A stretch of DNA of 64,000 nt from an uncultured Pseudomonadota bacterium (GCA_902785275.1 CACZYB010000002.1:64001-128000); one strand, 5' to 3'. Shown: positions 6,707-25,231, counted from the first letter of the stretch. Numbers and translations are program-made. Notes: generated by a model from the sequence alone, not told the origin.

Positions 6707-6907
6707 TCCTTTTATTTTTTTTAATACGAAAACGCGGATTTTACTTGAAAGATTATCATCGGTTGGAATTTCATCAATTTCGGAAATAATTTTTCCCAGT
6801 GATTTATTTTCTCGTTTGCAAATGGCCTTTAATTCTTCCCAAAATTCCGGTTCCAAAGACAAACTTGTCTTATGTCCAGTGATAGTTATCGAATGTTTTT
6901 CAAGCAT
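6698..6907 (-). CDS. Ribbon-helix-helix protein (RHH_4 type)
   Basis: KHSITITGHKTSLSLEPEFWEEL...NLSSKIRVFVL matches the alphaproteobacterial RHH_4 family. Confidence 0.9.
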   Translation of the reverse strand: MLEKHSITITGHKTSLSLEPEFWEELKAICKRENKSLGKIISEIDEIPTDDNLSSKIRVFVLKKIKGLH

Positions 6908-6922
6908 CTGTTTGACCCCAAA

Positions 6923-7369
6923 TTATATAGTTTCTTTTATGTATTCAAGCAACTGTTTGAATTTTTCAAAAACTTTTATTGTTTCAAAATTTATTCTGTT
7001 TAAAATCTTGAATTTTTTATCGTCTTCATCAAAAATAATTATATCAAAAAACATACTGCCAATAATAACGCGGTTATTGATTAAAGGATTTCCACTTTTT
7101 ACAAGAGGCATATTCACATCTACAACATTTGGAAATTTATAGTTATATTTTGTTCGTTCAAAAACTTTTGTGCCATAAAATTCATACGGAGGAAGTATCA
7201 AACCGTCGCTTTCTTTTAAAAACTCTTGATATTCCGGTGGAATAGGCGAAAGGTTGTTATTCTTAAGCATCGCATTTGTAAAATCAATCTGAGAGATATT
7301 TGCGTTGTCAAATCTAACCGCATTTGGAACCATATTTTCAAGGATTGTAATTTCTTCTTTTAAACTCAT
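6923..7369 (-). CDS. SMI1/KNR4 (SUKH, YrhA-like) family protein
   Basis: IPPEYQEFLKESDGL...FYGT signature; start overlaps the upstream stop by 1 bp. Confidence 0.75.
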   Translation of the reverse strand: MSLKEEITILENMVPNAVRFDNANISQIDFTNAMLKNNNLSPIPPEYQEFLKESDGLILPPYEFYGTKVFERTKYNYKFPNVVDVNMPLVKSGNPLINNRVIIGSMFFDIIIFDEDDKKFKILNRINFETIKVFEKFKQLLEYIKETI

Positions 7370-7935
7370 TAAAACCTCCCTGAATTTTTTAAAAACATAG
7401 TACTTCCAATTTCTGACATCTTATCGGCAGATGTGTTTCCACCCGCACCGGCAAATCCCTTTAATGCAGGAAGAAATACTATGCCATCAGGATTTGGCAC
7501 ATAAAGCTCTGTTGGAAGTAAAAATCCATTATTTTTATCATAGCCAGGATACTCCTTATTAAACGATAAAATCTGTTCATCAATAAAGGTATCAAGTATC
7601 TGTTTAAATGGGCGTGTTCTTATCAAAAACATATTGGAAAACTCAAGCTTTCCGCCATATTCCACAGGTTTTTTAAGGTATATAGTTATGTTTTCATTAA
7701 GTATCCCAGCATGCAATTCCTGTATTGCCTCAATCGGAAAATTCGCTTCCATAAGTTGTGATATATTGTTATAAGAAACATACTGTATTAATTTTTTTGA
7801 AATTTTAAAAAAGTCATTTCTAAATGCTTCGGCATTAAGGATATTTTTACCCTTATACGAAACTTTTGATATCGGCATTTCAGGAAGACCAAGTTTCGCA
7901 ATTAAATCGTGATAATATTCTTCACTGAACAGCAT
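7369..7935 (-). CDS. Degenerate HNH-endonuclease/toxin-like protein
   Basis: IYLKKPVEYGGKLEFSNMFLI..PFK aligns by eye to VHHxxPLxxGGxNxFxNLxLI..PxH but with His/Asn replaced; YVPNPDGIVF tail. Confidence 0.55.
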   Translation of the reverse strand: MLFSEEYYHDLIAKLGLPEMPISKVSYKGKNILNAEAFRNDFFKISKKLIQYVSYNNISQLMEANFPIEAIQELHAGILNENITIYLKKPVEYGGKLEFSNMFLIRTRPFKQILDTFIDEQILSFNKEYPGYDKNNGFLLPTELYVPNPDGIVFLPALKGFAGAGGNTSADKMSEIGSTMFLKNSGRF

Positions 7936-7944
7936 TTTTACCTC

Positions 7945-9060
7945 CTATCCGACTTTTTTAATTGGTGATTTTTTCGCCTTTTTATTAAAATATTTCATCA
8001 AGGTATTAACAAAGTTTTTATAACTTTCCAAAACCTCGGTTCCTGATTTATCCGGCAAAACATCAATCAAATTAGGAAGATCAGAACGGTTCATAAAACG
8101 AACAACATCTACACCAATTTCTTCCCATTTTGCCTTGATATCAGCATAGTTTGAAACAGTAGCACTTGGAATAACCACAACAGGTTTTATCAAAATACCA
8201 TTGTCTTCTGGTAATACTTCGTTAATCATATTTTGAATCATATTTGCAACATTTTTAATTTCCCCAACCGGTGATGGAAATTTGTGTTCATTCGTAAACC
8301 AAGAAGGAGTTTCTCCCTGTGCGTTTGAAACTTCGTTCGCAATAATTTCGCCGGTTTCTGTGGAAATAATACCAACCACTAAAGTATCACTTTCGGCAAT
8401 TGCTACGAAATCAATATCTGTATTGGCAATAACTTGAGCCCCCATATCGACATAGCCCGCATCAATCAAAACATCATCAATCATATTTTTGTAAACATCT
8501 CTGGCGCTAAGCATTCCTGACATATCCACAACATTATTTTCTTTAGGTGTATTTTGCGGTATTACCTCGGATTGTACAGAAGGTGCCTGTGGTGCAACCT
8601 GTGTCTCTGGTTGTACTGGTTGTGGTGCAATATCAACTTTTGTTTCGGTAACTGTCTTTACCACATCATTTACTGGCTTTTCCATAACAGTTTCCTTTGC
8701 AGGTTTTACCTGATTTGAAACATTGTTTCCATACAAATTTTCCCACTTTGCAATGTCTTCTTGTGAAGTATTATTTAAAAAAGAAACAGGGTTTTCCACC
8801 GCCTGTCCATTACTTTCATTCACAGTATTTTTATGGCTTTCTTTTAATGTAAGAATTCTAACTAATGCAAGGACATAAAGCGAAGCATTAACTGATGAAA
8901 CGATAAGTAAAAACTTGTCCTGAGAAAAGATATATCTGAAAACACCAATAGATGGGAATTTATGAAAATTAACCCCCCACCATGTGTTCATCCAATACAT
9001 AATTGGCCCAATCAATATGCCAGTAATTATTAAAATATAAAGGAATTTTTTCTTTATCAT
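7945..9060 (-). CDS. Membrane protein with P/Q/V-rich linker and C-terminal NERD-like domain
   Basis: Two N-terminal hydrophobic segments; DIDFVAI...SWF...PSPV...IKPVVVIP pattern resembles NERD; ExK motif absent. Confidence 0.55.
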   Translation of the reverse strand: MIKKKFLYILIITGILIGPIMYWMNTWWGVNFHKFPSIGVFRYIFSQDKFLLIVSSVNASLYVLALVRILTLKESHKNTVNESNGQAVENPVSFLNNTSQEDIAKWENLYGNNVSNQVKPAKETVMEKPVNDVVKTVTETKVDIAPQPVQPETQVAPQAPSVQSEVIPQNTPKENNVVDMSGMLSARDVYKNMIDDVLIDAGYVDMGAQVIANTDIDFVAIAESDTLVVGIISTETGEIIANEVSNAQGETPSWFTNEHKFPSPVGEIKNVANMIQNMINEVLPEDNGILIKPVVVIPSATVSNYADIKAKWEEIGVDVVRFMNRSDLPNLIDVLPDKSGTEVLESYKNFVNTLMKYFNKKAKKSPIKKVG

Positions 9061-9063
9061 TTT

Positions 9064-10443
9064 TTATTTTCCTTTTGATGCATCCTGCCAATGTTTTGCA
9101 ATAAGACTAGCCTGTTTTTCATCAGCTTCTTCTTCTTTTAATTCATCATAAATTTCTTTATATCTATTTTCGATATAATCTTTACCAAAAGTTGATTCTT
9201 CAAGACCTTTCATTATACGAATAATAACATTTGCATATTTCGATGGAATAGTATCCTTATCTTTTTTGTTGAAAAGATCAATTCCATTCATAAAAGCTTT
9301 TAATTTTGCTTGGCTTTCTTTTGTAACCTTACCATCCTTATCACGTTCAATAAAGCTTATAAAAGTTTTTGTTAAAACTTCATTTGGAATATCACTTTCT
9401 TTTGAAAAATCGAAAAACTTTTTTCTTGGTTCATACTTTGCATTTACCCTTTTTATTGCTTCATCCTTTGATATGTTTTTCTCGTTCATAAGTTCCACAA
9501 CCTCACTTGCAAAGTTAGTTTGTTTTCTTGCTTCAAGTTCTTCATTTAACTTTTGACACAAAAATTGGTTAAAGTATCCTGCGGTTTGAATCTCATTTTC
9601 TTTTAGATTCCAACCAGGTTTAAAATCTGTATCACCCGGAACAATACCCATATTTTTAAATTCATTGAAAGTATCTCTTACTGATGAGTTTTGGCTTCTC
9701 CAGTTTTCAAATTTATCAAGAGATGCCTTGGTTGCGTCAAGCCCTTCATAAAAGAATTTCCAAGGAATAATGATAAATTGGTTAAGTGCAGGTTGAATAA
9801 TTCCCAAAAATTGGTCAAGTTCTGGTATACCAGAGGTTATTTTCTTTTCAACACTATACTTATAAATTTGCTTTGCATCTTCTTTGATTTCGGGCCTTGG
9901 AACATCTTTAAAATCTTCTTTTATGTTTTCAGTTACCGATCCAACAGGTCCTTCCTCCTTCTCTTTTGGTGCATCTTCTACAACATTATCGTTGATACCA
10001 GCCTTATATTCATCACTTGCCTCTTGTGCAATTTCTTTGGCTTCTTTTTCTGTGATATTAGGGTACTTTTTCACAATATCATTTGCAACTTCATCAACGG
10101 TTTGTTTTTCAAGCCCAGCCCTTATAATCGCATCAATTTTTTTATCTATGCCATCAACTTCTTCATCCATAAAGTTCTGTATCGATGAAAGATAGCCATT
10201 TTTACCAAGTTTTTCGATTTTTCCATTAAGGTAGTCATTGGCAATATCAAACAAAGGATAATAGTTTAGGTTTGTCTTATCTTTCTTAAGTTCATCTATC
10301 TTATTCAAAGCTTCTTCTTTAGGAAGGCGATCAACAATATCCTTAGTCTTTTCAATCATAAACAAAAGTCCATTTTCAAGTTGCTTTCTGAATGAAATTA
10401 TTGACTCTGTGTTTTTTTCGTCATTATCTAAATTTTTTACCAT
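9064..10443 (-). CDS. Hypothetical E/K-rich helical protein
   Basis: 459 aa ORF, AGGTG RBS, no TM or signal peptide, first gene of a tightly spaced operon. Confidence 0.8.
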   Translation of the reverse strand: MVKNLDNDEKNTESIISFRKQLENGLLFMIEKTKDIVDRLPKEEALNKIDELKKDKTNLNYYPLFDIANDYLNGKIEKLGKNGYLSSIQNFMDEEVDGIDKKIDAIIRAGLEKQTVDEVANDIVKKYPNITEKEAKEIAQEASDEYKAGINDNVVEDAPKEKEEGPVGSVTENIKEDFKDVPRPEIKEDAKQIYKYSVEKKITSGIPELDQFLGIIQPALNQFIIIPWKFFYEGLDATKASLDKFENWRSQNSSVRDTFNEFKNMGIVPGDTDFKPGWNLKENEIQTAGYFNQFLCQKLNEELEARKQTNFASEVVELMNEKNISKDEAIKRVNAKYEPRKKFFDFSKESDIPNEVLTKTFISFIERDKDGKVTKESQAKLKAFMNGIDLFNKKDKDTIPSKYANVIIRIMKGLEESTFGKDYIENRYKEIYDELKEEEADEKQASLIAKHWQDASKGK

Positions 10444-10517
10444 AAAACACCTTAATTTTATTTGATTATTTTAAATCTATTGTTTATTATATACTAAAAA
10501 GGAGAGAGAGGCAAGAA

Positions 10518-10784
10518 ATGTTTTCTGGAAATTTAAAATTTTTAGTAATTTTGCTAAGTATTATTGGTGGACTTTTTGTAATCGCAAAACTTAAATATTT
10601 TATACTTTTCATTTCATGGACGGTTATTATATTTTGCCTTGGTATCCTTTACATAAAGGCTAACAGTCAGAACAAAGAATTACAGGAAAAAATTGATTTT
10701 TATTTCAGAAAGTTTATGAACTCTAAATTCGTTGAATTTATTGTTTCAATTCGTGATAAAATTCAAAATCAAAGGAAGAAATAA
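10518..10784 (+). CDS. Small two-TM membrane protein
   Basis: 88 aa, GAGG upstream, stop abuts the next start. Confidence 0.75.
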   Translation: MFSGNLKFLVILLSIIGGLFVIAKLKYFILFISWTVIIFCLGILYIKANSQNKELQEKIDFYFRKFMNSKFVEFIVSIRDKIQNQRKK

Positions 10785-12428
10785 TTGGCGGAAAAAACAG
10801 AAGGCGGATTTTTCAGTATTTTTGGCACCATTATCTCATTCATAAGATGGGGTTTAATGGGGCTATTTATACTATTGCTTTTTGTTTTGGGGGTGAAGTT
10901 TTATCCTGTATTAAAGGATTGCTGGACCTGTAATATTTTTTCCAGTCTTTATAATGCCTTTTCAATAATTGGAGCCTATACCTTTAGTTATTTTCAGGAA
11001 AATATTTTTGTTTTGATTTCTGTTTGTCTTGCCCTTTGGATTGTTTACGAAACATATAAGGCTTTGGAATCAAGCTTAACTTTTCTTATGCCGGATGCTC
11101 CAAAGTTTGATGATGGCTTTTTCAAAAAGATTTATAAAAAGATGTTTTTAACAACTGCGGTTGTTGGGCTTGTCATTTTAAACAGTCCGCGAAATGTTTT
11201 TTCTAATACATTTGAAATCACACTTGATTTCGGAAGCAGTATCAGTCGTGAATTCATTCGAAAGAAAATTGTTGATAAATCACAAATCCCATCTGAATGT
11301 GAAAAAACTTCCCGTGAACTTGTATATTCATCAGAAGGTGTTCTTTCCGATAACACACGCGATGATATGGTTTGCTTTTTAAAAGAAGTAAATATTTTAA
11401 GACAAGATTATATGGATTTGGGTATTGCCCTTGTCGAATATGCAAAGCCAAGTTTGATGAGAATGTTTGGTGATGCTATCTTTGTAAAACTTTCAACACT
11501 TATTTTGGGACATAGTATTTCAAAACGTTTTAGTGCTAAGTGGTTAAAAAAGCAGGAAAAGAAATTAAACAAGCTTTCCAATGGTAAGGATATTGAAAAG
11601 AACAAGAAAAAAATTGAAAAAATAAAAAAGCTTATTGAAAAGGCTGGCGATGATGCTGAAAATGGTGGTAAAAAACAAAAGATAAATAAGGCTGTGGGAC
11701 GTGCTATTTCACGTAGTTCAACCAATCTTGCTTTGGTGGATGCTTTGATTGAGTTTTTTGTTGATGATGATGTTCGTATGGGGCTTGCTGGACTTATGCT
11801 TATTATTGGTCTTTTCCTTGTTAATATGTTCTTTGCATTTGTTATTGTTGAAAAAATGTTATTCTTGGGTGTATCAATTTTGCTTCTTCCTCTTTTGGCC
11901 GCATGTTATATTTTTGAACAGACACGAAGTTTTGCAACTAAGTCACTAAAGGATACTTTCAGTTTTGCCATAGGACTTATTTTTATGAGTATTACAATGG
12001 TAATGTGTGCCGAAATTAATGATTGGATTTTGGGGGGAATGTTCTCTGCTCCTGGTTCATCAAATGTTTCTCGTACACTCGAAGCTATTGCATTGATAAA
12101 GGCTGGTAATATCGAAGAGTTCAACAAACTTGTCGGAACAGATTGGTACTTTGTTTACATTGTCTTTCTAGTAGGTGTTGACTTCTTATTGGTTAAATCT
12201 GCGGGAACTTTTGCTTCATGGTTTAATGGTTCATTTTCAGACTCTGAACTTGTTAAACCATTGTGGAAGATGGGAACATCTGCATATGCAACAACACTAT
12301 CTGTTGTGCGTGAGGTAAAACTTTACGTAAAAGATGGTGATTTAAAATCAAGGGATCGTGGCGCAGTTATCGATAGATTTTTCAGAAATCATTTTGGTAA
12401 AAAGGAGGCAGAAGATGAGAAAAAATAG
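10785..12428 (+). CDS. TrbL/VirB6-like polytopic membrane protein, paralogue 1
   Basis: TTG start; CWTC; MVCFL; VirB6-like core LLLPLLAACYIFEQTRSFA. Confidence 0.6.
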   Translation: MAEKTEGGFFSIFGTIISFIRWGLMGLFILLLFVLGVKFYPVLKDCWTCNIFSSLYNAFSIIGAYTFSYFQENIFVLISVCLALWIVYETYKALESSLTFLMPDAPKFDDGFFKKIYKKMFLTTAVVGLVILNSPRNVFSNTFEITLDFGSSISREFIRKKIVDKSQIPSECEKTSRELVYSSEGVLSDNTRDDMVCFLKEVNILRQDYMDLGIALVEYAKPSLMRMFGDAIFVKLSTLILGHSISKRFSAKWLKKQEKKLNKLSNGKDIEKNKKKIEKIKKLIEKAGDDAENGGKKQKINKAVGRAISRSSTNLALVDALIEFFVDDDVRMGLAGLMLIIGLFLVNMFFAFVIVEKMLFLGVSILLLPLLAACYIFEQTRSFATKSLKDTFSFAIGLIFMSITMVMCAEINDWILGGMFSAPGSSNVSRTLEAIALIKAGNIEEFNKLVGTDWYFVYIVFLVGVDFLLVKSAGTFASWFNGSFSDSELVKPLWKMGTSAYATTLSVVREVKLYVKDGDLKSRDRGAVIDRFFRNHFGKKEAEDEKK

Positions 12429-14517
12429 TTTTGCCTTTTTGCTTATCTTTTTTGTTTCAATTTTTTCAGGAAATGCTTTTGCTGGAAATTGTTCTTATAA
12501 CGATGCGATAATTTATTTTTCGTCGCCAAGTGTTACACTTTCCTCCTATAATCCAGAATATTATTGCAGTGATATTTTATACCTTATCAAAAACAAAAAG
12601 GGGAATATGTCACTTGATGCATATAAGAAATTATATCCACAAAAGCTTCACAGTAATGTAAAGTATTTACGTTCCCTTGGTCTAACTCCGGACATTATCG
12701 AAGAAGAAATAGAAGATTTTGATTACGACTTTTTGTTAACAAAGGAAACAACAGATACCTATCTAAAAAATTTAATTGCGAACTATCGTTCTGGTGATAA
12801 TATATTTGTCGTTACAGATAATTCCATAGAACCAGATCCTGAATTATTCCAATATAATGCACAGGGTGATATTGTTAATTCCGAAAAAAATTATAAAACA
12901 TGTATCAAAGTAAAGGATTCAAATCCAACTGAAAGTTCACTTTATTCATCCGAAAATGTTGGATATAATCAAATAATAAATGCTATTCCTCCGGCATTAA
13001 GACCTATTGTTGTAAGCGGGGGTAAATTACAAAATATTTTCGATATGGATGTTGCAACAATTGATAATAATCCTGCACTTGGAAAACGAAAATTTGGAGC
13101 AATAACTCCTATGAATGGCCCAAGGTCATTCCGTTTTGTTGATTTTTCAAATGATATCTTTGAAAAAAATAACAGTACATCTATTGAATGGATTGATAAG
13201 GTTTGCAAACCTTCAAGTTTAGAAGATAAGGTAAAACGAAACAGTACATGCTTCCTTTGCCCATACATTGTTATGATATTTGATGAAGTTTCATACATAT
13301 TTGATTACATGTATAAAACATTTAAATATACTATGCTTATATTCTTAATAGTATTTGGAAGTCTTTTTATCGTATTTGAGTTTTTAAAAGGTTTTTCATC
13401 CCTTCCATTTACCGCTGATTTTTCTGGTTATCCAAAGACTATTGCAAAAAAGTTACAGGCAATACTTATTGTTGTTACAATAATTTGGATACCACCAAGA
13501 AATCTTTTCTCATGGACGATACAGCCTGTTCTTGATTTAACAATTTATATTTCTGATACAATAATGGAGGTTGGAAATAAATCTGGTAATCAATACAAAT
13601 GTAATGGAGATACTATCGTTGATGAAATTAATCAAAAGCGTATCGAAGAACATAAAGAATTTCAGGTTCCACCAGTCGTAAAGCAAAAGCAACTTGCTAA
13701 TATCCAGTTAATAGAAGATGCTTCAATCCTTTCTAAAACAACAATGGGAAATATCATTTGCTTTTTAAATAATACACTAGAGGCAAACGGTAAACAAATG
13801 ACCATGGGTGAAATTTTGGTAACAAAAGCATTCAGTTTTTCTAAACATCCAGAATATGAATACCGTTTTCTTGGATTTATTTTTGGTGTCATAGTTTTTG
13901 GTTTGTATTTTTTAATCAGTATAATGATTTCATTCTATATTTTGGATGGGCTTCTTGAATTTTTCAAAATTGCAATTATGTGGCCATTCTTTGTGTTTGG
14001 TTATGCGTTCCAGTATACAAAGTTTAATGTAAAAAGTATAATAGGTACGGCAAAAAGCTTTGGTTTAACATTGATAAATATTGCAGTATTTTCAGTTTTC
14101 AATTCTGCACTTTTGAATAGTTTCTATTTCGTTGGCACACGTGAAAATTTGCTTACCATACTTAACGAAGCGATTAAAAAGGATGATGTTTCAATAATTC
14201 TTAAAAATGTGCCAAGTGATCCACTTGCTATAACTCAATTCTTGTTCATCGTGTTCTGTATTTATTACATTTATTCAAAGCTTGGTGTATTGGCATCATC
14301 TTATGGTGGCTCTATGGGTGGAATAAGTATTGGAAATAATATCAGAAATATTGTAAACTCTTCCCGAAGTGCGATTACATCTGTTACCAGAAAGCTTGAT
14401 GATAAAGCAAGAAAGTTTTCAAAAAAATCAAATGAAGAGGATGAAATTCCACAGCCGGAACAACCAAAACAAGAAGAAAATGACAAAGCTAATGAAGAGG
14501 AAACAACCAATGCGTAA
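12415..14517 (+). CDS. TrbL/VirB6-like protein, paralogue 2, with N-terminal exported domain
   Basis: ATG at 12415 after AAGGAGG; signal peptide (AFA-G); CFLC; IICFL; MWPFFVFGYAFQYTKF. Confidence 0.6.
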   Translation: MRKNSFAFLLIFFVSIFSGNAFAGNCSYNDAIIYFSSPSVTLSSYNPEYYCSDILYLIKNKKGNMSLDAYKKLYPQKLHSNVKYLRSLGLTPDIIEEEIEDFDYDFLLTKETTDTYLKNLIANYRSGDNIFVVTDNSIEPDPELFQYNAQGDIVNSEKNYKTCIKVKDSNPTESSLYSSENVGYNQIINAIPPALRPIVVSGGKLQNIFDMDVATIDNNPALGKRKFGAITPMNGPRSFRFVDFSNDIFEKNNSTSIEWIDKVCKPSSLEDKVKRNSTCFLCPYIVMIFDEVSYIFDYMYKTFKYTMLIFLIVFGSLFIVFEFLKGFSSLPFTADFSGYPKTIAKKLQAILIVVTIIWIPPRNLFSWTIQPVLDLTIYISDTIMEVGNKSGNQYKCNGDTIVDEINQKRIEEHKEFQVPPVVKQKQLANIQLIEDASILSKTTMGNIICFLNNTLEANGKQMTMGEILVTKAFSFSKHPEYEYRFLGFIFGVIVFGLYFLISIMISFYILDGLLEFFKIAIMWPFFVFGYAFQYTKFNVKSIIGTAKSFGLTLINIAVFSVFNSALLNSFYFVGTRENLLTILNEAIKKDDVSIILKNVPSDPLAITQFLFIVFCIYYIYSKLGVLASSYGGSMGGISIGNNIRNIVNSSRSAITSVTRKLDDKARKFSKKSNEEDEIPQPEQPKQEENDKANEEETTNA

Positions 14518-16501
14518 ATTAAAATATTTCTTGATGCTCATTTCTTTTGTCTTTGTTATGCAAAGCAATATTTCCTTTTCTGCAACACATAATTGTCAAA
14601 ATCCGGAACTTTATTTGCTATCAAATGACGAAGTTAATATGTCCAATTCAGAATTTTACTGTTGGGAGATAAGATATTTAAAACAATACCATAATCTTTT
14701 ATCAACATCAATGAATTCATATTACAGTTTTTATGCAAAAAATTTGGATAAGGATAATATCGAAGTTTTACGAAAGCTTGGTGTCACACCGGAAAAATAT
14801 GACTATCTTAAAAAGTATTTTATTGATGAAGATGATGACGAAGAAGATGATTTCAAAAAGGTTATTGAAATTGCTATTTCTCGTTCAAAAAAAACTTTAA
14901 CAGACAAAGTTGAATATAAGTACGGAAATCCAATTTTTTCAGTAGGAAGTTTTTTGCATCCATTGCATAATACTTTGGAAACTTTAAAAAGTATTCCATC
15001 AAATATAATTCCAAAGAAAACAGTTTATGATAGTTTTCTTAAAATATTTGGGCAAAAATGTATACCTTCCTATGCAAATAATATTTCAAAAGTAATAAAT
15101 AAATATCCATCTGCACTACAACCTGTTGGTGTGATTGGTAAATATTTTGTAAATGCTTTTGGAGAGGTTTCTCTTGAACTTAATCATGTAAAAGAAAATC
15201 TTTTTTACCCAACGTATGATATCAGATTGCCAAATAATGAAAAATCTTATGGTAATTGGGATACAAAGTATTGTAGTGTTTCTGATTTCGGCCGTACAAT
15301 GAAAAGGGCATTTTCTTGCACACCATGTACAATGTTTGAAATTGCATTTAATACAGTTTCAAGAGTTGGTTTCGTTTTGTATGATAAGCTTTCACGTTTT
15401 GCAATTGAGTTGATGATTGTTTTATTTTCTCTTTGGTCATTACTAATGTTCTTTGATAATGCGATAAAAAAGCAAGATGGTTTTTCATATATAAAAACAT
15501 TCTTTTCAAAAATTATTTGGGTATTTATCGTAGGTGCATTTTTATCCGTATCAATAAAGGATGAAAATAATATTGTTAATTATACGATACGTCCTATTAC
15601 TGATTTTATGGTTGGATATAGCAATGTTATGACCCGTGCCATAGATACCACCCATTCAGAGTGGACCTGTAAATATGCAACAAGGGATTTAAAGGATAAC
15701 AAATATCTTTTTTCAAAGGATGTAAAGCAAGATATCGTTTGCACCATTGAACGAATTGCTGATTTTAATAATCTAAATATATTGGTTGGTGTAAGTGTGA
15801 TGAAACAAGGTTTTTCACAAGTTATGGATATTGAAATAGGAAGTGGTGTTACAAAAATTTTGCTTGGTCTTACCATTGCGGGAATATTCTTTATATTCAA
15901 TTTATCCGTGCCATATTACTTTATCGAGTCACTTTTCCATATTGCACTTGTCGTATTTCTTTTCCCATTGTTTTTGATGGCGTATGCATTTGATAAAGGA
16001 AAGTCATTTGTTAAAAATGGATTTGATACATTTCTTTCATCAATTTCACAAATTATCGCCTTATCCATTATGTGTTCAGTAATAAGTTTATTGATGTACT
16101 ATATTTCATCAATCAATTTTTACGATTTGCAAAAAGCAATAGAAACAAATAATAGCCAAGAAGTTGCATCATCAATGCTTTTGTTTTATTCCTTTAACAC
16201 AAATTATCTTTTGGAAATTATTTATACAGGAATTATTTGCTGGTGGCTTTTATCTAAGTCATTGGAATTTGCGAATGCATTTGGTTCAAGTCATGATGAG
16301 TTACCAAAAACATTTGGTAAATTTATGGGCAGTTCGGTTAAGGCTGCGACAAGTGTTGTTGTCGACTATGCTTATATGAAAATGAAGGCAAGTACTTTGG
16401 CTGAAAAACTTCGAAAGGATAAAGATAAAGAAGCGAAAAATCTTCAAAAAGCAAAAAATCTTGCTAATGAAATTTTGGAAAAAGTAGGTGAAAAGAAATG
16501 A
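14510..16501 (+). CDS. TrbL/VirB6-like protein, paralogue 3, with N-terminal exported domain
   Basis: ATG at 14510 overlapping the previous gene's end; signal peptide; CTPC; IVCTI; FLFPLFLMAYAFDKGKSF. Confidence 0.6.
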   Translation: MRKLKYFLMLISFVFVMQSNISFSATHNCQNPELYLLSNDEVNMSNSEFYCWEIRYLKQYHNLLSTSMNSYYSFYAKNLDKDNIEVLRKLGVTPEKYDYLKKYFIDEDDDEEDDFKKVIEIAISRSKKTLTDKVEYKYGNPIFSVGSFLHPLHNTLETLKSIPSNIIPKKTVYDSFLKIFGQKCIPSYANNISKVINKYPSALQPVGVIGKYFVNAFGEVSLELNHVKENLFYPTYDIRLPNNEKSYGNWDTKYCSVSDFGRTMKRAFSCTPCTMFEIAFNTVSRVGFVLYDKLSRFAIELMIVLFSLWSLLMFFDNAIKKQDGFSYIKTFFSKIIWVFIVGAFLSVSIKDENNIVNYTIRPITDFMVGYSNVMTRAIDTTHSEWTCKYATRDLKDNKYLFSKDVKQDIVCTIERIADFNNLNILVGVSVMKQGFSQVMDIEIGSGVTKILLGLTIAGIFFIFNLSVPYYFIESLFHIALVVFLFPLFLMAYAFDKGKSFVKNGFDTFLSSISQIIALSIMCSVISLLMYYISSINFYDLQKAIETNNSQEVASSMLLFYSFNTNYLLEIIYTGIICWWLLSKSLEFANAFGSSHDELPKTFGKFMGSSVKAATSVVVDYAYMKMKASTLAEKLRKDKDKEAKNLQKAKNLANEILEKVGEKK

Positions 16502-18057
16502 ACGTTAATGAAAAGGCAAAAGAAATTGCTACAGATAAAATAAAGAGTGTGCTTCATTTTTCTCTTGTAAGCATAAAATTTATATTTACATACATTATCT
16601 TTGGCTTTTTTGGCCTTATTGCACTTGCTATTGTTGGAAGTAAATTAAGTGGCGATTGGACTGTTGGTGTATCATTTAACGAATGGTGGGGCTCTATGAC
16701 CAAACTTCCACTTGTTAATGGAAAATTTTCCGCCGTTGATCCTGGTACATGTCTTGTCTGTGATTTATTTTCCAAATGCTTTGATTTAATGAGTGTTATG
16801 GGATTAAAGATGTATATTTATATCGCAGATGTTGCATGGACACTTATTACCATGGGTTTTGCTGTTTGGATTTTGATGTATATGTACGACCATTTGATAA
16901 AAGAACAAGATGGTGATGTACATAAAATGATTGTTGATGTCGCAAAAAGAATTATAATAATAAGTATTGTTGGTGTTGCACTATTTTCAACAAGTGATAA
17001 GTCAAAAAATGAAAAATATCTTCAATATATTTCAAATACTATTGTTGACAGTACCGCTGTCCCAGTCCTTAAAATGGGGGTAGGTGTCGGTGCAAAAATT
17101 CTTGATACTAATATTTGTTCATCACTAAGTTATCCAAAAACAGAAGTGCAGGGAATGTTAAGTTCTGAATTAAAAGAAGATATGCTTTGTCTTTTGAATA
17201 CGGTAAGCAGTGTTTACCTAAGTGCAATGAGTGCTGGTTCAAATATGGTTGCCATGTCATGGAAAAGTTTTGCTTCTAATCCTGTAAAATACAAAAGTAA
17301 TTTACCTGATATTGTCGCCGGTATGTCACTTATTGCTATATTCTTAATTATGTATGTGACAATACCGTTTATGTTGATTGATATAGTCTTTACCTTTGGT
17401 ATATTACTTTCATTTTTGCCACTTATGATTGGTGGTTATGCGTATGATAATACAAAGGGCTTTTCCAAAAAGGGTATCGATTCGCTTTGGGGAATGTGCT
17501 TCTACATTATAATATATTCAATATTCCTTGGTATAATATATTCATCGTTCGTTTATATTGCCGATATGTATTATCCTGGCCCACTTGATAACTTCACATA
17601 TCTTTTCCCTGATTTTATGTACAAAGATATGGTTGGAAGTCAAACAGCAAACCTTATGAAAAGTCAGGCGTTTGCATCATGCTATAATGCTGCGAATGGT
17701 AATATTTCACAAATTCAAAATTGCCTTCTAAAGGTTGGAATAGAATTCGAAATGCCAAATTTCGAAAACCCAGGTGGAAGCTTCTTACCAATGTTTACAT
17801 TTGGACTTTTATCCCTTATGATTATGGGAAGTGTAAAGGTTTATTCCGGATTATTAAAAGGCTATACTTTTGAAATTGGCGCTGCATCAATGAAGCTTAT
17901 CCAATCTTCATGGGGGTGGATAACAAGTAAGGTTTCACGTGAAGTCAAAGGCTTTAGAAAAATTGTTTCAGAGGCAGCTCTTAAAAAAGATGATATTAAT
18001 AAACAGGCCGATGCGGTTGTTGATGAAGCAAAGGATGTAGAGGATACCGAAGAATGA
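16498..18057 (+). CDS. TrbL/VirB6-like protein, paralogue 4
   Basis: ATGA overlap; CLVC; MLCLL; FLPLMIGGYAYDNTKGFSKKG. Confidence 0.6.
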   Translation: MNVNEKAKEIATDKIKSVLHFSLVSIKFIFTYIIFGFFGLIALAIVGSKLSGDWTVGVSFNEWWGSMTKLPLVNGKFSAVDPGTCLVCDLFSKCFDLMSVMGLKMYIYIADVAWTLITMGFAVWILMYMYDHLIKEQDGDVHKMIVDVAKRIIIISIVGVALFSTSDKSKNEKYLQYISNTIVDSTAVPVLKMGVGVGAKILDTNICSSLSYPKTEVQGMLSSELKEDMLCLLNTVSSVYLSAMSAGSNMVAMSWKSFASNPVKYKSNLPDIVAGMSLIAIFLIMYVTIPFMLIDIVFTFGILLSFLPLMIGGYAYDNTKGFSKKGIDSLWGMCFYIIIYSIFLGIIYSSFVYIADMYYPGPLDNFTYLFPDFMYKDMVGSQTANLMKSQAFASCYNAANGNISQIQNCLLKVGIEFEMPNFENPGGSFLPMFTFGLLSLMIMGSVKVYSGLLKGYTFEIGAASMKLIQSSWGWITSKVSREVKGFRKIVSEAALKKDDINKQADAVVDEAKDVEDTEE

Positions 18058-20663
18058 AAAAATTATTTTTAACATTACTATTTAATATATGTTTTTCTAT
18101 TTCTGGCTTTGCTCAAACTATTGCAAATGCTAACTATGATAACAATATGGTTGGTGGTGTAAGAAATATAAGTAAATGTTGGGAATGTAAACTTGTAGAA
18201 GGTGTTTACACTTATTCATTCAATTTTGTGTTTAAGATGTATAAGGTTATTGCCCCTGTTATTGCATCGTTGGTATTGGTATTTTTGGCATTTTGGTTTT
18301 TATGGTATGTTTGGGAAAATGTAATCAAAGCCCATATGAATTTTAAGGGTGGAAACGTTTTTGATTTTTTAAAAGAAATTTGGAAAAAATTATTTACTGT
18401 ACTTTTTGTTTTATCGTTGCTTTGGCATGTTCCTGCAAACAGAATTTTCAGTTATACAATCGATCCAATCATGAGCTTTGGTGCAGGATTTGGAAAATGG
18501 ATTTTGATTGAAACAAGAAATGAAAACGAAATTATGCAAGATTATTCAAAAGCAGTTTTGAATAAGAAACTTCCAAAATTTGATTGTTCAAATATAACTC
18601 TTTCAAAAAATACGCTTGATATGTTCAGGGTTAATGGTGTTGATGGCGAAAGTGAAATGAATGTTGATACACTTAAAAATCTTATCTGTATAACTGGCGA
18701 ATATTCAAACAGCTATACCATAGGACTAAATCTTGGTGCAAAAATTTTATCGCGTGGTTTAATTGGTTTTGCCGAAAATCTTGGTGCCGAAAGTATCAGA
18801 AAAAAAATTGATTCGTTTTCATCATTTATTCCACAGGTCGGATGGGGAAAGATTGCATATTTTGCATTAAAAATTATTTTAATCCTTGCAAAAATTTGGC
18901 TTGTTGCAGGGCTATTTACAAATATGCTTATCGTTGTTATTGGTGGATTTATAATGATACAGTTCTTATATGTCGGGCTTACATTTATAACAATGATTTT
19001 GGATATAGTTATACAGCTTGCCTTGGTCGGTGTTATGATGCCAATAGTTATTGGTTCGTGGGCCTATCCAGATAAAGGTATGGGTAATCTTCGCGGTAAA
19101 TTATCGGGAAAGCTTTTCTGGGGTGTACTTCGTTGTTCCTTCCGTCTTGGATTTTTGGCTGTTTCTATGAGTATTACTATATTCCTTTTAAACGAGCTTA
19201 TGACAACAAAATTTACGGTTGGTTCCGATGATACAATGCTTTCTTTGTACGAAGTTTTAAATGGGAATAAAGGCCTTTTGACCCAAGGTTTTATTTTAAA
19301 TAATTCAACATACGATTTTGTAAAGTTACTTATTTCCAATGTTGGCCTTTTGATTGCAATGATATTTACAACCCTTGTATCATGGATGCTTCTTCGTGAA
19401 AGTATTAAAAAGGCAGATAGTTTTTCCGGTGCCCTTTACAGTGGTGTATCAAATGATAATATTTTGAACGGATTGAAAAAATTAACAACTTCATCTATTG
19501 AATATGTTATGAGTGGTGCAAAACGTGAAGTCGATTTTTATAAAAAGAATAAATTGGCAAAAAAGATTTTGGATGAAGATAAACAAGAGGCAAAGGATGT
19601 TGCTCGTAAATCACAAATCGAAAAATGGGAAAATGAAGTTTTCAACGAAGGAAACACCGAACATCTTTTCGATATCCCAGCAGAAAAAGTTGTTGATGAA
19701 TATGATAAAATAAGAAATATCGAACAACCACCAAAAGATGATAGTCTTGTTCCAACCGTACCAACAAAGGACGAAACCGAAACTTCGGTTAAATTTGAAA
19801 ATGCTCCAATGGAACTTAATATTAAGGAAAATATTGAAGAGGTTAAAAAAGAACAATCCAAGGAAAGTGAATTTATTTCGACCGAACTTGCATCTCCGGA
19901 ATTCAAAGATTTGCCAGAGGATAAAAAAGAAAAGCTTACAACTTCTATTCTTTCTGAAGATAAGGAAAGTCTGATTGATATATCAAAGGATACAGAAATA
20001 GCCAAAATGTTTGAAATACGTAATGCAACACCGAAGGAAGATGATGAAATAGTAAATGATAAATTCGTAACTGATAACCTTATTGCGACAGAGGTTGTTT
20101 CCGCGGATGATTTATCAAATCCTGTGATAAAACTTCAATCAACATATATAAGACAGCAAATTATTGAAGAAATAAAAAACTTGCCTCAAAACGAACAAAA
20201 AGAAATTAAAAAGTTTATGAAGTTAACCAAAAAACCAAACCTTTCTAAAAAGGAAAAAAGGGAAGAATTCGAAAAACAAAAACGTATCTATGAAAAGTTA
20301 GAATCAAAGGTTAAGGCCGATATGCGTGCAAAACAACAAAAAATTAAGGATCTTATGCTTGAACGTGAAAAGCTTAAATCTACTAATAAAAAGAAGTCGG
20401 TTCTTACCGCTAAAAATGTAATTCAAACAATTAAAAATGATGAGTTGAATAATCTAAAGGCAGAACTTGAAGAACTTAATTTTTCTGATATCGCACAACG
20501 TTCACTTCTTCGCCGTGAAATGAAAAAGCTTGAGGAGGAAATAACTGCTATATCCGAAAAAGATAATCTTGAGCTAGAAGACGAATATGATGCAATTGTT
20601 GCTAATTGGAAACGTAAAAAACGAAGAAGAAAAGCTCGTATCAATCCATTGAAAAAGATATAA
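18054..20663 (+). CDS. TrbL/VirB6-like protein, paralogue 5, with long charged C-terminal tail
   Basis: ATGA overlap; signal peptide; CWEC; LICIT; MMPIVIGSWAYPD; roughly 370 aa E/K-rich tail. Confidence 0.6.
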   Translation: MKKLFLTLLFNICFSISGFAQTIANANYDNNMVGGVRNISKCWECKLVEGVYTYSFNFVFKMYKVIAPVIASLVLVFLAFWFLWYVWENVIKAHMNFKGGNVFDFLKEIWKKLFTVLFVLSLLWHVPANRIFSYTIDPIMSFGAGFGKWILIETRNENEIMQDYSKAVLNKKLPKFDCSNITLSKNTLDMFRVNGVDGESEMNVDTLKNLICITGEYSNSYTIGLNLGAKILSRGLIGFAENLGAESIRKKIDSFSSFIPQVGWGKIAYFALKIILILAKIWLVAGLFTNMLIVVIGGFIMIQFLYVGLTFITMILDIVIQLALVGVMMPIVIGSWAYPDKGMGNLRGKLSGKLFWGVLRCSFRLGFLAVSMSITIFLLNELMTTKFTVGSDDTMLSLYEVLNGNKGLLTQGFILNNSTYDFVKLLISNVGLLIAMIFTTLVSWMLLRESIKKADSFSGALYSGVSNDNILNGLKKLTTSSIEYVMSGAKREVDFYKKNKLAKKILDEDKQEAKDVARKSQIEKWENEVFNEGNTEHLFDIPAEKVVDEYDKIRNIEQPPKDDSLVPTVPTKDETETSVKFENAPMELNIKENIEEVKKEQSKESEFISTELASPEFKDLPEDKKEKLTTSILSEDKESLIDISKDTEIAKMFEIRNATPKEDDEIVNDKFVTDNLIATEVVSADDLSNPVIKLQSTYIRQQIIEEIKNLPQNEQKEIKKFMKLTKKPNLSKKEKREEFEKQKRIYEKLESKVKADMRAKQQKIKDLMLEREKLKSTNKKKSVLTAKNVIQTIKNDELNNLKAELEELNFSDIAQRSLLRREMKKLEEEITAISEKDNLELEDEYDAIVANWKRKKRRRKARINPLKKI

Positions 20664-20695
20664 AAAATCCCCCGAAATTGGGGGATTAAATTTTT
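20662..20695. terminator. Intrinsic terminator between convergent genes
   Basis: AATCCCCCG-aaat-TGGGGGATT with an A tract on the left (U tail on the - strand). Confidence 0.75.
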
Positions 20696-25082: not shown

Positions 25083-25231
25083 TTGTATATCCTTTCCAGC
25101 TAAATGCAACCTTTATTTTACCACTAAACTCACTGAATTTCAAGTGTTTTTCAAATATTTTTCTTAAAAAATTTATTGATTTTTACATTACTATGTTATA
25201 AAAAAGTGTTATCAGAGAAAAAGGGGAAAAA

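What the first reader, a model, noticed from the sequence alone, without database searches (positions are those of the whole stretch)
10785..20663. Five tandem TrbL/VirB6-like paralogues sharing a CxxC and two further conserved cysteines
Seen: each protein has a CxxC followed by an amphipathic helix and a TM segment (CWTC 10920, CFLC 13249, CTPC 15317, CLVC 16750, CWEC 18177). Each then has a segment of the NxFSxTIxP type, a lone Cys, and a related motif (DDMVCFL / GNIICFL / QDIVCTI / EDMLCLL / KNLICIT). The core P-hydrophobic-aromatic motif follows (e.g. LPLLAACYIFEQTRSF). All genes overlap or abut. Known: Rickettsiales carry tandem virB6 copies (rvhB6a-e) directly after virB3-virB4. Here no virB3/B4 is adjacent, and I do not know this Cys signature from canonical VirB6. 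Inference: a hetero-oligomeric, disulfide- or metal-stabilised channel of a distinct VirB6 subfamily.
Basis: partly seen in the sequence, partly recalled or inferred. Interest (0 to 1): 0.8.

Follow-up and report, generated by a model that had tools for sequence, protein, structure and literature searches.

The report
Five-copy VirB6 array with periplasmic cysteines
Five neighbouring genes of a tiny uncultured alphaproteobacterium encode diverged copies of VirB6, the base piece of a type IV secretion machine, and all five carry a shared cysteine pattern that the papers I searched do not mention.

Summary
Window 10785-20663 holds five co-directional genes that abut or overlap (0, 14, 8, 4 and 4 nt at the junctions) and encode 519-869 aa proteins about 22% identical to each other. 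Each has a CxxC and two further cysteines. They are VirB6/TrbL proteins. Pfam PF04610 passes marginally for two of them. An AlphaFold model of the fourth (pLDDT 87.7) aligns to R388 TrwI/VirB6 over 268 of 272 residues (Z 11.9).

The rest of a VirB/D4 machine lies elsewhere in the 1.05-Mb genome (VirB2?, B3, B4, B8, B9, B10, B11, D4). No VirB5 was found.

Eleven of 12 untruncated arrays from the same order have five copies. Each of those whose upstream flank I examined follows a small two-helix membrane protein, and virB3-virB4 lie far away.

The CxxC occurs in 248 of 255 complete family members. It also occurs in two single-copy VirB6 genes inside ordinary virB-type operons, so it is not specific to arrays. 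Cysteines are lost in pairs (CxxC together, loop pair together), which points to two local periplasmic disulfides rather than one four-Cys site.

Hetero-oligomer assembly is plausible (solved VirB6 is a pentamer) but untested. I could not compare named Rickettsiales RvhB6. Verdict: new variant of a known kind.

The parts
10462..10490 (+). promoter-like site upstream of the operon (weak evidence)
   Evidence: Consensus scan, 9 of 12 matches. The scan found no more sites than in shuffles (49 against 52.9), so this is only a positional candidate.
10518..10784 (+). 88-aa protein with two hydrophobic helices and a charged C-terminal helix; first gene of the operon, abutting P1
   Evidence: ORF and hydrophobicity. 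Strong ribosome-binding-like stretch. Conserved directly upstream of the array in 4 of the 5 same-genus loci fetched (44-82% identity); in the fifth (L074) BLAST found no hit, though the 127-aa ORF at that position looks related by eye. A 69-94 aa two-helix ORF sits at the same place in 5 loci of other families of the order. No Pfam or NCBIfam family. Not VirB3-like by hhalign (prob 1.3%).
10785..12428 (+). VirB6 paralogue 1 (547 aa): N-terminal membrane anchor, CxxC at C46/C49, loop Cys C172/C197, Lys-rich insert around residues 240-330
   Evidence: PF04610 at 26.1 bits against a cut-off of 25.9; 37 bits in the six-frame search. 24 further proteins at 36-76% identity, besides the window's own record, with C172 and C197 invariant and C46/C49 at 90% or more.
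12415..14517 (+). VirB6 paralogue 2 (700 aa): signal-peptide-like N-terminus, about 250-aa periplasmic domain with four further Cys, CxxC at C279/C282, loop Cys C396/C449
   Evidence: Family profile E 1.7e-175; no Pfam hit by itself. The N-terminal domain model has pLDDT 86.1 and pTM 0.83 with no PDB fold match (best Foldseek E 1.4; best Z 2.6 of 48,161 chains).
14510..16501 (+). VirB6 paralogue 3 (663 aa): same build as paralogue 2; CxxC at C270/C273, loop Cys C387/C411
   Evidence: PF04610 at 17.4 bits, below the cut-off. Family profile E 1.3e-177. The N-terminal domain aligns with that of paralogue 2.
16498..18057 (+). VirB6 paralogue 4 (519 aa): N-terminal membrane anchor, CxxC at C85/C88 at the start of the first long helix, loop Cys C207/C231
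   Evidence: PF04610 at 27.5 bits in the six-frame search. AlphaFold2 pLDDT 87.7, pTM 0.82. The top four Foldseek PDB hits are TrwI/VirB6 chains (prob 0.99-1.00, E 1.2e-2 to 1.6e-1). VIA-align Z 11.9, rmsd 6.1, 268 of 272 residues, model 83-455 against chain 2-269.
18054..20663 (+). VirB6 paralogue 5 (869 aa): signal-peptide-like N-terminus, CxxC at C42/C45, loop Cys C178/C212, about 400-aa Lys/Glu-rich C-terminal tail
   Evidence: Family profile E 9.8e-134; no Pfam hit. Tail composition K 17%, E 14%.
20666..20687 (.). G+C-rich hairpin with T runs on both strands; terminator-like, closes the operon

Best explanation
Window 10518-20663 is a six-gene operon: one small two-helix membrane protein followed by five anciently diverged VirB6 paralogues. 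It supplies the VirB6 (stalk-base or inner-membrane platform) module of a chromosomal VirB/VirD4-type type IV secretion system. The other genes of that system are scattered over the roughly 1-Mb genome of an uncultured alphaproteobacterium.

Shown here:
- VirB6 family and fold.
- The other T4SS parts are present elsewhere in the genome.
- The five-copy array, its order and its small leader gene are conserved across the organism's order.
- The cysteine signature runs through the family.

Inferred:
- The CxxC sits in the periplasm at the N-terminal cap of helix alpha-1, the helix that enters the membrane in R388 VirB6, and forms a local disulfide.
- The second pair staples the connection between the two non-hydrophobic helices alpha-3 and alpha-4.
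- Both pairs stabilise the periplasmic part of the protein.
- The five paralogues are non-redundant and co-assemble into mixed pentamers.
- Their paralogue-specific extra domains (a novel-looking periplasmic domain in paralogues 2 and 3, a charged tail in paralogue 5) take over roles that VirB5 or other parts have in canonical systems.
For: Family and fold:
- PF04610 passes for P1 and P4.
- The P4 model aligns to TrwI/VirB6 over 268 of 272 residues at Z 11.9; the next unrelated row is 8.9.
- The hydrophobic segments of P4 (107-130, 143-166, 267-315, 326-356, 428-448) fall on helices 1, 2 and 5-7. R388 VirB6 is described the same way (PMC9259494, passages).

Machine:
- VirB4 and a 97-aa VirB3 (13 of 16 orthologues hit PF05101).
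- VirB8-VirB9-VirB10.
- VirD4 and a VirB11-like ATPase.
- Weak VirB2/TrbC candidates.

Conservation:
- 28 of 31 genomes of the order have matches.
- 11 of 12 untruncated arrays fetched have five ORFs.
- Each paralogue has its own orthologue clade and the gene order is kept.

Operon: overlapping starts and one terminator-like site.

Cysteines:
- Of 255 complete sequences, 219 have all four, 22 lack only the loop pair, 3 lack only the CxxC and 2 lack all four. Nine have a single loss.
- A signal-peptide-like start or an N-terminal anchor precedes the CxxC in all five.
- The model helix starts at residue 88, the second Cys of the CxxC.
- Two DsbA-like proteins with CGHC and CGFC motifs are encoded.

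Pentamer precedent: VirB6 is a pentamer in R388 (PMC9259494).
Against: - P2 and P5 have no Pfam hit of their own, and P3 is below the cut-off.
- Sequence similarity to TrwI is not significant (E 3.3).
- Z 11.9 is within the range that helical models can reach by chance, according to the tool's own note.
- No DsbB (only 14.4 bits, with stops inside the match) and no VKOR were found in a 95.7%-complete genome, so the oxidising pathway is incomplete as far as seen.
- The third Cys was detected by a heuristic window, and related sequences are not independent events.
- Arrays outside the order have 1-5 copies, so five is not a rule of the family.
- Nothing here shows that the paralogues touch each other.
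- The Trp called invariant and essential in VirB6 (PMC2653234, passage) is Tyr or Phe at the aligned positions in P1-P4.
Confidence: 0.7

Rival explanations
1. The locus is simply the RvhB6 array of a bona fide Rickettsiales vir homolog (rvh) system. It would share an origin with rvhB6a-e of Rickettsia, and the cysteine signature would be an overlooked general feature of RvhB6.
For: Published rvh hallmarks that are met: scattered gene clusters, three to five VirB6 copies with large flanking insertions, and no VirB5 (PMC10732058 passage; PMC11077975 passage). One orthologue of P1 is labelled 'Rickettsiales bacterium' by its source. The genome is small.
Against: No second VirB4 or VirB9 was found. 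The second VirB8-like gene is below the Pfam cut-off. virB3-virB4 are not joined to the array, here or in relatives (51-280 kb apart on the same contig in three genomes), whereas they are joined in Rickettsia and Anaplasmataceae (PMC2653234 passages). There is no ATP/ADP translocase gene. In a sample of 301 genomes of the class, the 41 with that gene and the 25 with this VirB6 family did not overlap at the thresholds used. All named hits are uncultured Alphaproteobacteria or Pseudomonadota MAGs.
Confidence: 0.3
2. The five paralogues do not mix. Each forms its own homo-pentamer and serves a different substrate set, condition or machine variant, as alternative stalk bases.
For: The paralogues share only about 22% identity and have different extra domains. 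Copy number varies from 1 to 5 in other lineages. Single-copy relatives evidently work alone.
Against: The genes abut or overlap and share one terminator-like site, which suggests co-expression in fixed ratios. There is only one VirB4, VirB9, VirB10 and VirD4 to dock onto. Five copies are kept in 11 of 12 untruncated arrays of the order, matching the pentamer of the solved structure. A paper whose title alone I saw in a reference list reports that four VirB6 paralogues of Ehrlichia interact (Bao et al. 2009, cited in PMC12857230).
Confidence: 0.25
3. The CxxC is not a structural disulfide. It would be a redox-active or metal-binding site, for example a thiol switch that gates assembly, or a metal site shared between subunits.
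For: The CxxC lies at the N-terminal cap of a helix, the geometry of thiol-disulfide oxidoreductase active sites (the comparison is from general knowledge). It is kept more strictly than the loop pair (248 against 225 of 255). No DsbB or VKOR was found.
Against: It is periplasmic and there is no thioredoxin fold around it. The two middle residues vary freely (WT, FL, TP, LV, WE). The pair is lost as a unit in 5 sequences that otherwise look intact, as expected for a stabilising bond.
Confidence: 0.15
4. The proteins are an unrelated family of polytopic membrane transporters that only resemble VirB6 by helical content, with no link to type IV secretion.
For: The Pfam scores are marginal, the PDB sequence match is not significant, and no VirB gene is adjacent.
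Against: In the class sample, 22 of the 23 genomes holding a close VirB4 orthologue (39-55% identity) also had matches to this family's profile. A short single-copy family member with the same CxxC sits between VirB4 and VirB8 in a VirB2-to-VirB10 operon (L117). A CxxC-headed VirB6 sits at the same place on a Roseibium plasmid (L124). The fold match covers the whole of TrwI.
Confidence: 0.03

Closest known systems
RvhB6a-e of Rickettsia and VirB6-1 to -4 of Anaplasmataceae (extended VirB6 paralogues of the Rickettsiales vir homolog T4SS)
   Same: Tandem array of three to five highly diverged VirB6 genes (about 80% divergence in Rickettsia, about 78% here). Large non-VirB6 extensions. Reduced genome. 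T4SS genes scattered in islets. No VirB5 (PMC2653234 and PMC10732058 passages).
   Different: The array is not joined to virB3-virB4. It is led by a small two-helix protein. No duplicate VirB4 or VirB9 was found. There is no ATP/ADP translocase. The relatives found are uncultured MAGs, many with gut-associated record titles. I could not test whether RvhB6 has the cysteine signature. The passages I read in the two Rickettsiales T4SS papers mention cysteines or disulfides only for VirB7, VirB9 and VirB2.
TrwI/VirB6 of plasmid R388 (PDB 7o3v, 8rt9, 8rtd)
   Same: The fold aligns over 268 of 272 residues (Z 11.9). The distribution of hydrophobic and non-hydrophobic helices is the same. The conserved Pro-containing helix motif aligns.
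   Different: About 10% identity. TrwI is single-copy, forms a homo-pentamer, works with VirB5, and is 342 residues without extra domains. I did not see the N-terminal letters of TrwI, so its cysteine status is unknown to me.
Single-copy VirB6 with an N-terminal CxxC in ordinary virB-type operons: Roseibium aggregatum plasmid NZ_CP045621.1 (WP_228933708.1, 'type IV secretion system protein') and the 314-aa VirB6 of locus L117
   Same: A CxxC within the first 13 residues, followed by a hydrophobic-Phe motif at the start of helix 1. L117 matches the family profile from the CxxC onward. The Roseibium gene was found by tblastn with the L117 protein, aligned from the CxxC onward.
   Different: Short (314-338 aa), one copy, no loop cysteine pair, and embedded between VirB4/VirB5-position genes and VirB8-B10.
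Tandem six-copy VirB6-like arrays of Micrarchaeota noted earlier in this scan (AI notes, unchecked)
   Same: A fixed number of ancient VirB6-like paralogues in a host-dependent, reduced genome.
   Different: Archaeal, six copies, no stated cysteine signature. Not examined here.

Membership tests
TrbL/VirB6 (Pfam PF04610) | Score at or above the Pfam gathering cut-off (25.9 bits) | tested here: met
   P1 scores 26.1 bits as a protein and 37 bits in the six-frame search; P4 scores 27.5 bits. P3 is below the cut-off at 17.4 bits. P2 and P5 have no hit, but they join P1 and P4 through the five-way profile (E 1e-134 to 1e-177).
TrbL/VirB6 (Pfam PF04610) | VirB6 fold: seven long helices, with helices 1, 2 and 5-7 hydrophobic | tested here: met
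   P4 model against TrwI: Z 11.9, rmsd 6.1, 268 of 272 residues aligned. Foldseek prob 1.00 at E 1.2e-2. Hydrophobic segments fall on helices 1, 2 and 5-7. Only P4 was modelled.
TrbL/VirB6 (Pfam PF04610) | Invariant, essential Trp in the conserved Pro-containing helix (as stated in PMC2653234) | tested here: inconclusive
   At the position aligned to TrwI's Trp the five have F, F, F, Y, Y. Two residues earlier they have Y, Y, Y, Y, W. Across the 168 family proteins that earlier column is Y 87, W 55, F 16. The register against canonical VirB6 rests on one weak alignment.
TrbL/VirB6 (Pfam PF04610) | Occurs with the other VirB/VirD4 genes | tested here: met
   VirB3, B4, B8, B9, B10, a B11-like ATPase and D4 are in the same genome. 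22 of the 23 class-sample genomes with a 39-55% identical VirB4 also matched the family profile.
Rickettsiales vir homolog (rvh) T4SS | Multicopy (3-5) VirB6 with large flanking insertions | tested here: met
   Five copies of 519-869 aa, with N-terminal domains in P2 and P3 and a C-terminal tail in P5.
Rickettsiales vir homolog (rvh) T4SS | Scattered gene clusters | tested here: met
   T4SS genes lie at six or more separate places on three contigs.
Rickettsiales vir homolog (rvh) T4SS | No VirB5 equivalent | tested here: met
   PF07996 gave no match at E up to 1 in the 95.7%-complete genome. A divergent VirB5 could still escape this search.
Rickettsiales vir homolog (rvh) T4SS | Duplicated VirB4, VirB8 and VirB9 with one atypical copy each | tested here: not met
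   One VirB4 and one VirB9. A second VirB8-like ORF scores only 17-18 bits, below the cut-off. A very divergent second copy cannot be excluded.
Rickettsiales vir homolog (rvh) T4SS | virB3-virB4-virB6 array contiguous (islet A of Rickettsia; the same in Anaplasmataceae) | tested here: not met
   virB3-virB4 are on contig C1 and the array is on C2. In three relatives with both on one contig they are 51, 138 and 280 kb apart.
Rickettsiales vir homolog (rvh) T4SS | Host organism belongs to the order Rickettsiales | not testable with these tools
Source labels of relatives read Alphaproteobacteria, Pseudomonadota, or once Rickettsiales bacterium.

The most novel reading that the evidence does not exclude
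The five paralogues are the five different subunits of one obligate hetero-pentameric VirB6 stalk base, one of each per machine. On this reading, the fixed number of five in this order mirrors the C5 symmetry of the solved VirB6 pentamer. A symmetric homo-oligomer would have become an asymmetric ring. The subunit-specific, disulfide-stapled periplasmic domains include a roughly 250-residue domain with no detectable PDB fold relative. Those domains would replace the missing VirB5 cap and decide what is secreted or contacted.
Probability: 0.3. Interest if true: 0.8.

Novelty: new variant of a known kind. Interest (0 to 1): 0.55.

Why it matters
Multicopy VirB6 is a long-standing oddity of the Rickettsiales secretion system, and its reason is unknown. 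A recent paper calls that system an order-level signature (PMC11077975).

This locus shows a related but differently organised version. The array is kept at five copies across a whole order of roughly 1-Mb uncultured alphaproteobacteria. Related arrays of one to five copies occur in about two dozen other small-genome lineages of the class.

The match between five conserved paralogues and the pentameric VirB6 of the solved R388 machine gives a concrete, testable hypothesis for why the gene multiplies.

The cysteine signature gives simple handles for biochemistry: alkylation shifts and Cys-to-Ser mutants. It also gives a sequence marker for finding family members that Pfam and NCBIfam miss.

Tried and rejected
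- Complex prediction of P1 (residues 1-510, 25-row alignment) with the 88-aa upstream protein (10-row alignment): no answer. Scores were 0.18 and 0.02 against a mark of 0.32, and the controls were not run. This is not evidence either way.
- Idea that the N-terminal domain of P2/P3 is a fused VirB5: Foldseek against the PDB gave nothing (best E 1.4), and VIA-align against 48,161 chains gave a best Z of 2.6. There is no support, and a missing match does not show that the fold is new.
- Idea that the 88-aa protein is a second VirB3: hhalign probability 1.3%.
- Named Rickettsiales sequences:
  - The search for homologous proteins with P0101, which I had guessed from its length to be rickettsial, returned 10 unnamed proteins.
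  - The 47-sequence profile returned 79 proteins, all named ones being MAGs.
  - Five ATP/ADP-translocase-positive genomes gave no PF04610 and no PF03135 match. Either they lack a T4SS or the tool's first-look filter missed it.
- NCBIfam: no family for any of the five or for the small T4SS-neighbour ORFs.
- PDB sequence search with the five-way profile: TrwI only at E 3.3.
- ESM Atlas: the nearest clusters are unnamed 'hypothetical protein' clusters, one with PF04610 on 49% of members. It gave no useful taxa (one search was unanswered).
- Expression: no RNA holder is listed.
- Earlier findings by place and by sequence: nothing.
- Literature searches:
  - 'VirB6' with 'heteropentamer' or 'hetero-pentamer': 0 papers.
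  - 'VirB6' with 'CXXC': 5 papers. In the one I opened, the motif refers to TraF.
  - 'RvhB6' with 'cysteine': 10 papers.
  - 'VirB6' with 'Rickettsiales' and 'disulfide': 11 papers.
  - From these last two searches I read passages of two papers only.
  - Figures and EPS supplements, which hold the published VirB6 alignments, could not be read.

Full report
WHAT IS THERE

The window is part of contig C2 of a 1.05-Mb, 18-contig, 95.7%-complete genome with about 32% G+C. On the + strand between 10518 and 20663 lie six genes in a row:
- an 88-aa ORF, 10518-10784;
- P1, 10785-12428, TTG start, 547 aa;
- P2, 12415-14517, 700 aa from its ATG;
- P3, 14510-16501, 663 aa from its ATG;
- P4, 16498-18057, 519 aa;
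- P5, 18054-20663, 869 aa.

The junctions abut or overlap by 0, 14, 8, 4 and 4 nt. Each start follows a purine-rich stretch. A G+C-rich hairpin with T runs follows the last stop at 20666-20687. I read this as one operon. The promoter-like site at 10462-10490 is only a positional candidate, because the scan found no more sites than in shuffled sequence.

The five long proteins are about 22% identical to each other. The genome has no further paralogue.

Each protein has a CxxC and two later cysteines:
- P1: 46/49, 172, 197
- P2: 279/282, 396, 449
- P3: 270/273, 387, 411
- P4: 85/88, 207, 231
- P5: 42/45, 178, 212

MAFFT misplaced P5's third Cys, so one search lists only three invariant Cys columns. 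Cysteine is 1.2% of these proteins (40 of 3298), so chance identity in five sequences at one column is about 3e-10. P2 and P3 share four more cysteines in their N-terminal domain.

THEY ARE VirB6

- Pfam PF04610 (TrbL/VirB6) scores 26.1 bits for P1 against a cut-off of 25.9.
- In the six-frame genome search it scores 37 bits for P1, 27.5 for P4 and 17.4 (below the cut-off) for P3.
- P2 and P5 have no hit of their own, and NCBIfam has none for any of the five.
- A profile of the five finds TrwI of R388 in the PDB only at E 3.3, although in the expected Pro-containing helix.
- An AlphaFold2 model of P4 built on 137 family sequences has mean pLDDT 87.7 and pTM 0.82.
- Its four best Foldseek PDB hits are all TrwI/VirB6 chains of the R388 stalk (probabilities 0.99-1.00, E 1.2e-2 to 1.6e-1, TM 0.46-0.52 on the target).
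- VIA-align gives Z 11.9, rmsd 6.1, with 268 of 272 residues aligned (model 83-455 to chain 2-269). The next unrelated row is at 8.9.

The tool warns that helical models can reach such Z values by chance. The full-length coverage, the Pfam hits and the genomic evidence below make the assignment safe in my view.

The hydrophobic stretches of P4 fall on model helices 1, 2 and 5-7. [quoted passage not shown]

THE REST OF THE MACHINE

The other parts lie elsewhere in the genome:
- VirB4 (811 aa), preceded by a 97-aa ORF, lies on C1. That ORF is VirB3: 13 of 16 orthologues hit PF05101, best E 2.7e-7.
- VirB8, VirB9 (with a SPOR domain) and VirB10 lie together on C3.
- VirD4 and a 326-aa VirB11-like ATPase are on C1.
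- A second, sub-threshold VirB8-like ORF is also on C1.
- There are two weak VirB2/TrbC candidates. The family passes the Pfam cut-off in 4 of the 7 genomes searched, though not in this one.
- No VirB5 (PF07996) was found at E up to 1.
- phmmer found no second VirB4 or VirB9.

CONSERVATION OF THE ARRAY

With the five-way profile, 28 of 31 genomes of the same order have matches. In the genus, 9 of 13 other genomes show exactly five. One shows six matches; by my reading its fifth gene is split between two contigs. One shows three at a contig start, and two show none.

I fetched 15 loci from 14 of these genomes. Twelve arrays are not cut by contig ends, and 11 of those 12 have five VirB6 ORFs; one has four. 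Gene order and paralogue identity are kept, and each paralogue forms its own clade with orthologues in a FastTree of 145 sequences.

The 88-aa protein is conserved directly upstream in 4 of the 5 genus loci fetched (44-82% identity). In the fifth (L074) BLAST found no hit, though the 127-aa ORF at that position looks related by eye. An ORF of 69-94 aa with the same build of two hydrophobic helices sits at that place in five loci of other families. It is not detectably VirB3-like.

VirB3 is present in 31 of 31 genomes of the order and is never next to the array. In the three genomes where both lie on one contig they are 51, 138 and 280 kb apart.

THE WIDER FAMILY

The profile finds 1,590 cluster representatives at E up to 1e-3 and 964 at E up to 1e-10 among 1.84 billion proteins.

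In an even sample of 301 genomes of the class, 25 have matches. Most are small genomes (23 of the 25 are 0.9-2.5 Mb) and most show several matches close together. In the 19 loci I fetched from them outside the order, arrays hold 1-5 ORFs.

Of the 23 sampled genomes whose VirB4 is 39-55% identical to this one, 22 are among those 25.

The genome has no ATP/ADP translocase gene. The 41 sampled genomes that have one do not overlap with the 25 at the thresholds used.

All source names that I saw for family members are uncultured MAGs: Alphaproteobacteria bacterium, Pseudomonadota bacterium, Proteobacteria bacterium CAG:495, and once Rickettsiales bacterium. Many record titles point to guts.

I could not obtain any named Rickettsia, Anaplasma or Wolbachia VirB6. 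So the key comparison with RvhB6a-e is missing.

THE CYSTEINES

Of 282 distinct family sequences aligned to the profile, 255 cover all the relevant columns. Their cysteine patterns are:
- all four cysteines: 219
- CxxC kept, both loop cysteines lost: 22
- loop pair kept, both CxxC cysteines lost: 3
- all four lost: 2
- a single loss: 9 (six of these depend on my heuristic for the third Cys)

So the cysteines are lost as two units. This fits a C1-C2 bond and a C3-C4 bond. It argues against C1-C3/C2-C4 cross-links and against a single four-Cys metal site. Related sequences share history, so these counts overstate the number of independent events.

Location. P2, P3 and P5 begin with signal-peptide-like segments. 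P1 and P4 begin with a long hydrophobic anchor after a short N-terminal stretch, charged in P4. Either way the CxxC is placed outside the cytoplasm. I ran no dedicated topology program.

In the P4 model the first long helix starts at residue 88, the second Cys of the CxxC. The fold match to TrwI starts at residue 83. The CxxC therefore caps the periplasmic end of alpha-1. C207 and C231 flank the connection between the two non-hydrophobic helices (168-202 and 223-260). By the R388 architecture that connection should point away from the membrane; this last step is inference.

Two DsbA-like proteins with CGHC and CGFC motifs are encoded. I found no DsbB and no VKOR, which weakens the disulfide reading somewhat.

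The CxxC is not restricted to arrays. A 314-aa single-copy VirB6 inside a VirB2-to-VirB10 operon of another alphaproteobacterium starts with a CxxC at residues 10-13 (L117). The VirB6 of a Roseibium aggregatum plasmid, annotated 'type IV secretion system protein', has one at residues 6-9. Both lack the loop pair. A Paracaedimonas plasmid VirB6 lacks the CxxC. One chromosomal single-copy gene has CxxxC instead (L063).

COMPARISON WITH WHAT IS KNOWN

Rickettsia carries virB3-virB4a-virB6a-e as one islet. Its five VirB6 copies are about 80% divergent and carry large flanks (PMC2653234, passages).

Published rvh hallmarks are scattered clusters, duplicated RvhB4, RvhB8 and RvhB9, three to five RvhB6, and no VirB5 (PMC10732058 and PMC11077975, passages). 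The locus here meets the scattered, multicopy, extended and no-VirB5 points. It fails the VirB4 and VirB9 duplication and the virB3-virB4-virB6 contiguity.

In the passages I read, cysteines and disulfides are discussed only for VirB7, VirB9 and VirB2, not VirB6. The published alignments are in figures that I could not see.

My searches found no paper that holds 'VirB6' together with 'heteropentamer' or 'hetero-pentamer'. A reference title in PMC12857230 says that four VirB6 paralogues of Ehrlichia are expressed and interact (title only).

Earlier AI notes of this scan describe six-copy VirB6-like arrays in Micrarchaeota and extended VirB6 in CPR bacteria (unchecked). Multiplied VirB6 may therefore be a recurring trait of reduced, host-dependent cells.

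HOW IT MOST LIKELY WORKS

My best reading is as follows. The operon makes, in fixed proportion, five different VirB6 subunits and a small membrane partner. These form the base of the T4SS stalk above the VirB3/VirB4 ATPase complex.

Two local disulfides per subunit stiffen the periplasmic part. The paralogue-specific additions give the ring functions that VirB5 or other parts supply elsewhere. These additions are:
- the roughly 250-residue N-terminal domain of P2 and P3, modelled with pLDDT 86.1 and without any PDB fold match at Z above 2.6;
- the Lys-rich insert of P1;
- the 400-residue Lys/Glu-rich tail of P5.

That the five mix in one pentamer is suggested by three things: the pentameric R388 VirB6, the abutting or overlapping genes, and the constancy of five copies in this order. 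It is not shown, and arrays of three or four copies elsewhere argue that no simple one-of-each rule holds for the whole family.

What the system secretes is unknown. The absence of an ATP/ADP translocase, the syntenic SUKH/YrhA-like neighbour, and the RHS or M23 fusions in relatives hint at bacterial targets rather than host cells. That is a lead only.

VERDICT

This is a new variant of a known kind: an extended, multicopy VirB6 array of an rvh-like scattered T4SS, found outside the classical Rickettsiales picture. It has a cysteine signature that I could not find described in the papers searched, and a fixed five-fold copy number that suggests a testable structural hypothesis.

Noticed in passing
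window 6698-10443 (- strand): The divergently transcribed neighbours are a 459-aa ORF with no family, a 371-aa ORF with a weak NERD hit, a 188-aa ORF with no family, a 148-aa YrhA/SUKH-1-like ORF (NCBIfam NF038335, 51.6 bits against a cut-off of 55; Pfam SMI1_KNR4, E 0.0037) and a 69-aa ribbon-helix-helix protein. They stay syntenic with the array through the genus. The 371- and 188-aa genes stay syntenic in other families of the order as well. SUKH proteins are often immunity proteins (from general knowledge), so this could be an effector/immunity set of the T4SS.
   Followed up: partly
P0174-P0176; P0231, P0244, P0246: Some family members from other metagenomes carry a Peptidase_M23 domain (PF01551) or RHS repeats (PF05593) next to the VirB6 part, according to precomputed Pfam labels. 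One is named 'RHS repeat protein' by its source.
   Followed up: no
window 12415-13266 (P2 residues 1-284): The N-terminal periplasmic domain shared by P2 and P3 (helical half plus beta half, four conserved Cys) is modelled with confidence (pLDDT 86.1, pTM 0.83). Its best match has Z 2.6 among 48,161 PDB representatives, far below the usual background of 7-8 that the tool quotes.
   Followed up: partly
genome G000, outside the window (C6:8336-9160; C2:138032-138601): Two DsbA-like thioredoxin-fold proteins are present (CGFC and CGHC motifs). Neither DsbB nor VKOR was found in this 95.7%-complete genome.
   Followed up: partly
genome G007 (same genus, 96% complete): This genome has VirB3 but gave no match, and no first-look candidate, for the VirB6 profile. 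This is either a real loss of the array or an assembly gap.
   Followed up: no
window 22797-25109 (-) and 25232-27238 (+): Two large ORFs (770 and 668 aa) just beyond the array have no credible Pfam or NCBIfam family.
   Followed up: no
G000:C3:130687-132237 (outside the window): The VirB9 homologue is 516 aa long and ends in a SPOR (peptidoglycan-binding) domain, and the VirB10 homologue is 715 aa long. Both look longer than the usual proteins, judged from memory rather than checked.
   Followed up: no
G000:C1:241584-242285 and C1:42447-43157 (outside the window): Conserved-looking ORFs of 233 and 236 aa lie directly after VirB4 and after the second VirB8-like gene. Neither has a family. They are candidates for further divergent T4SS parts.
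   Followed up: no
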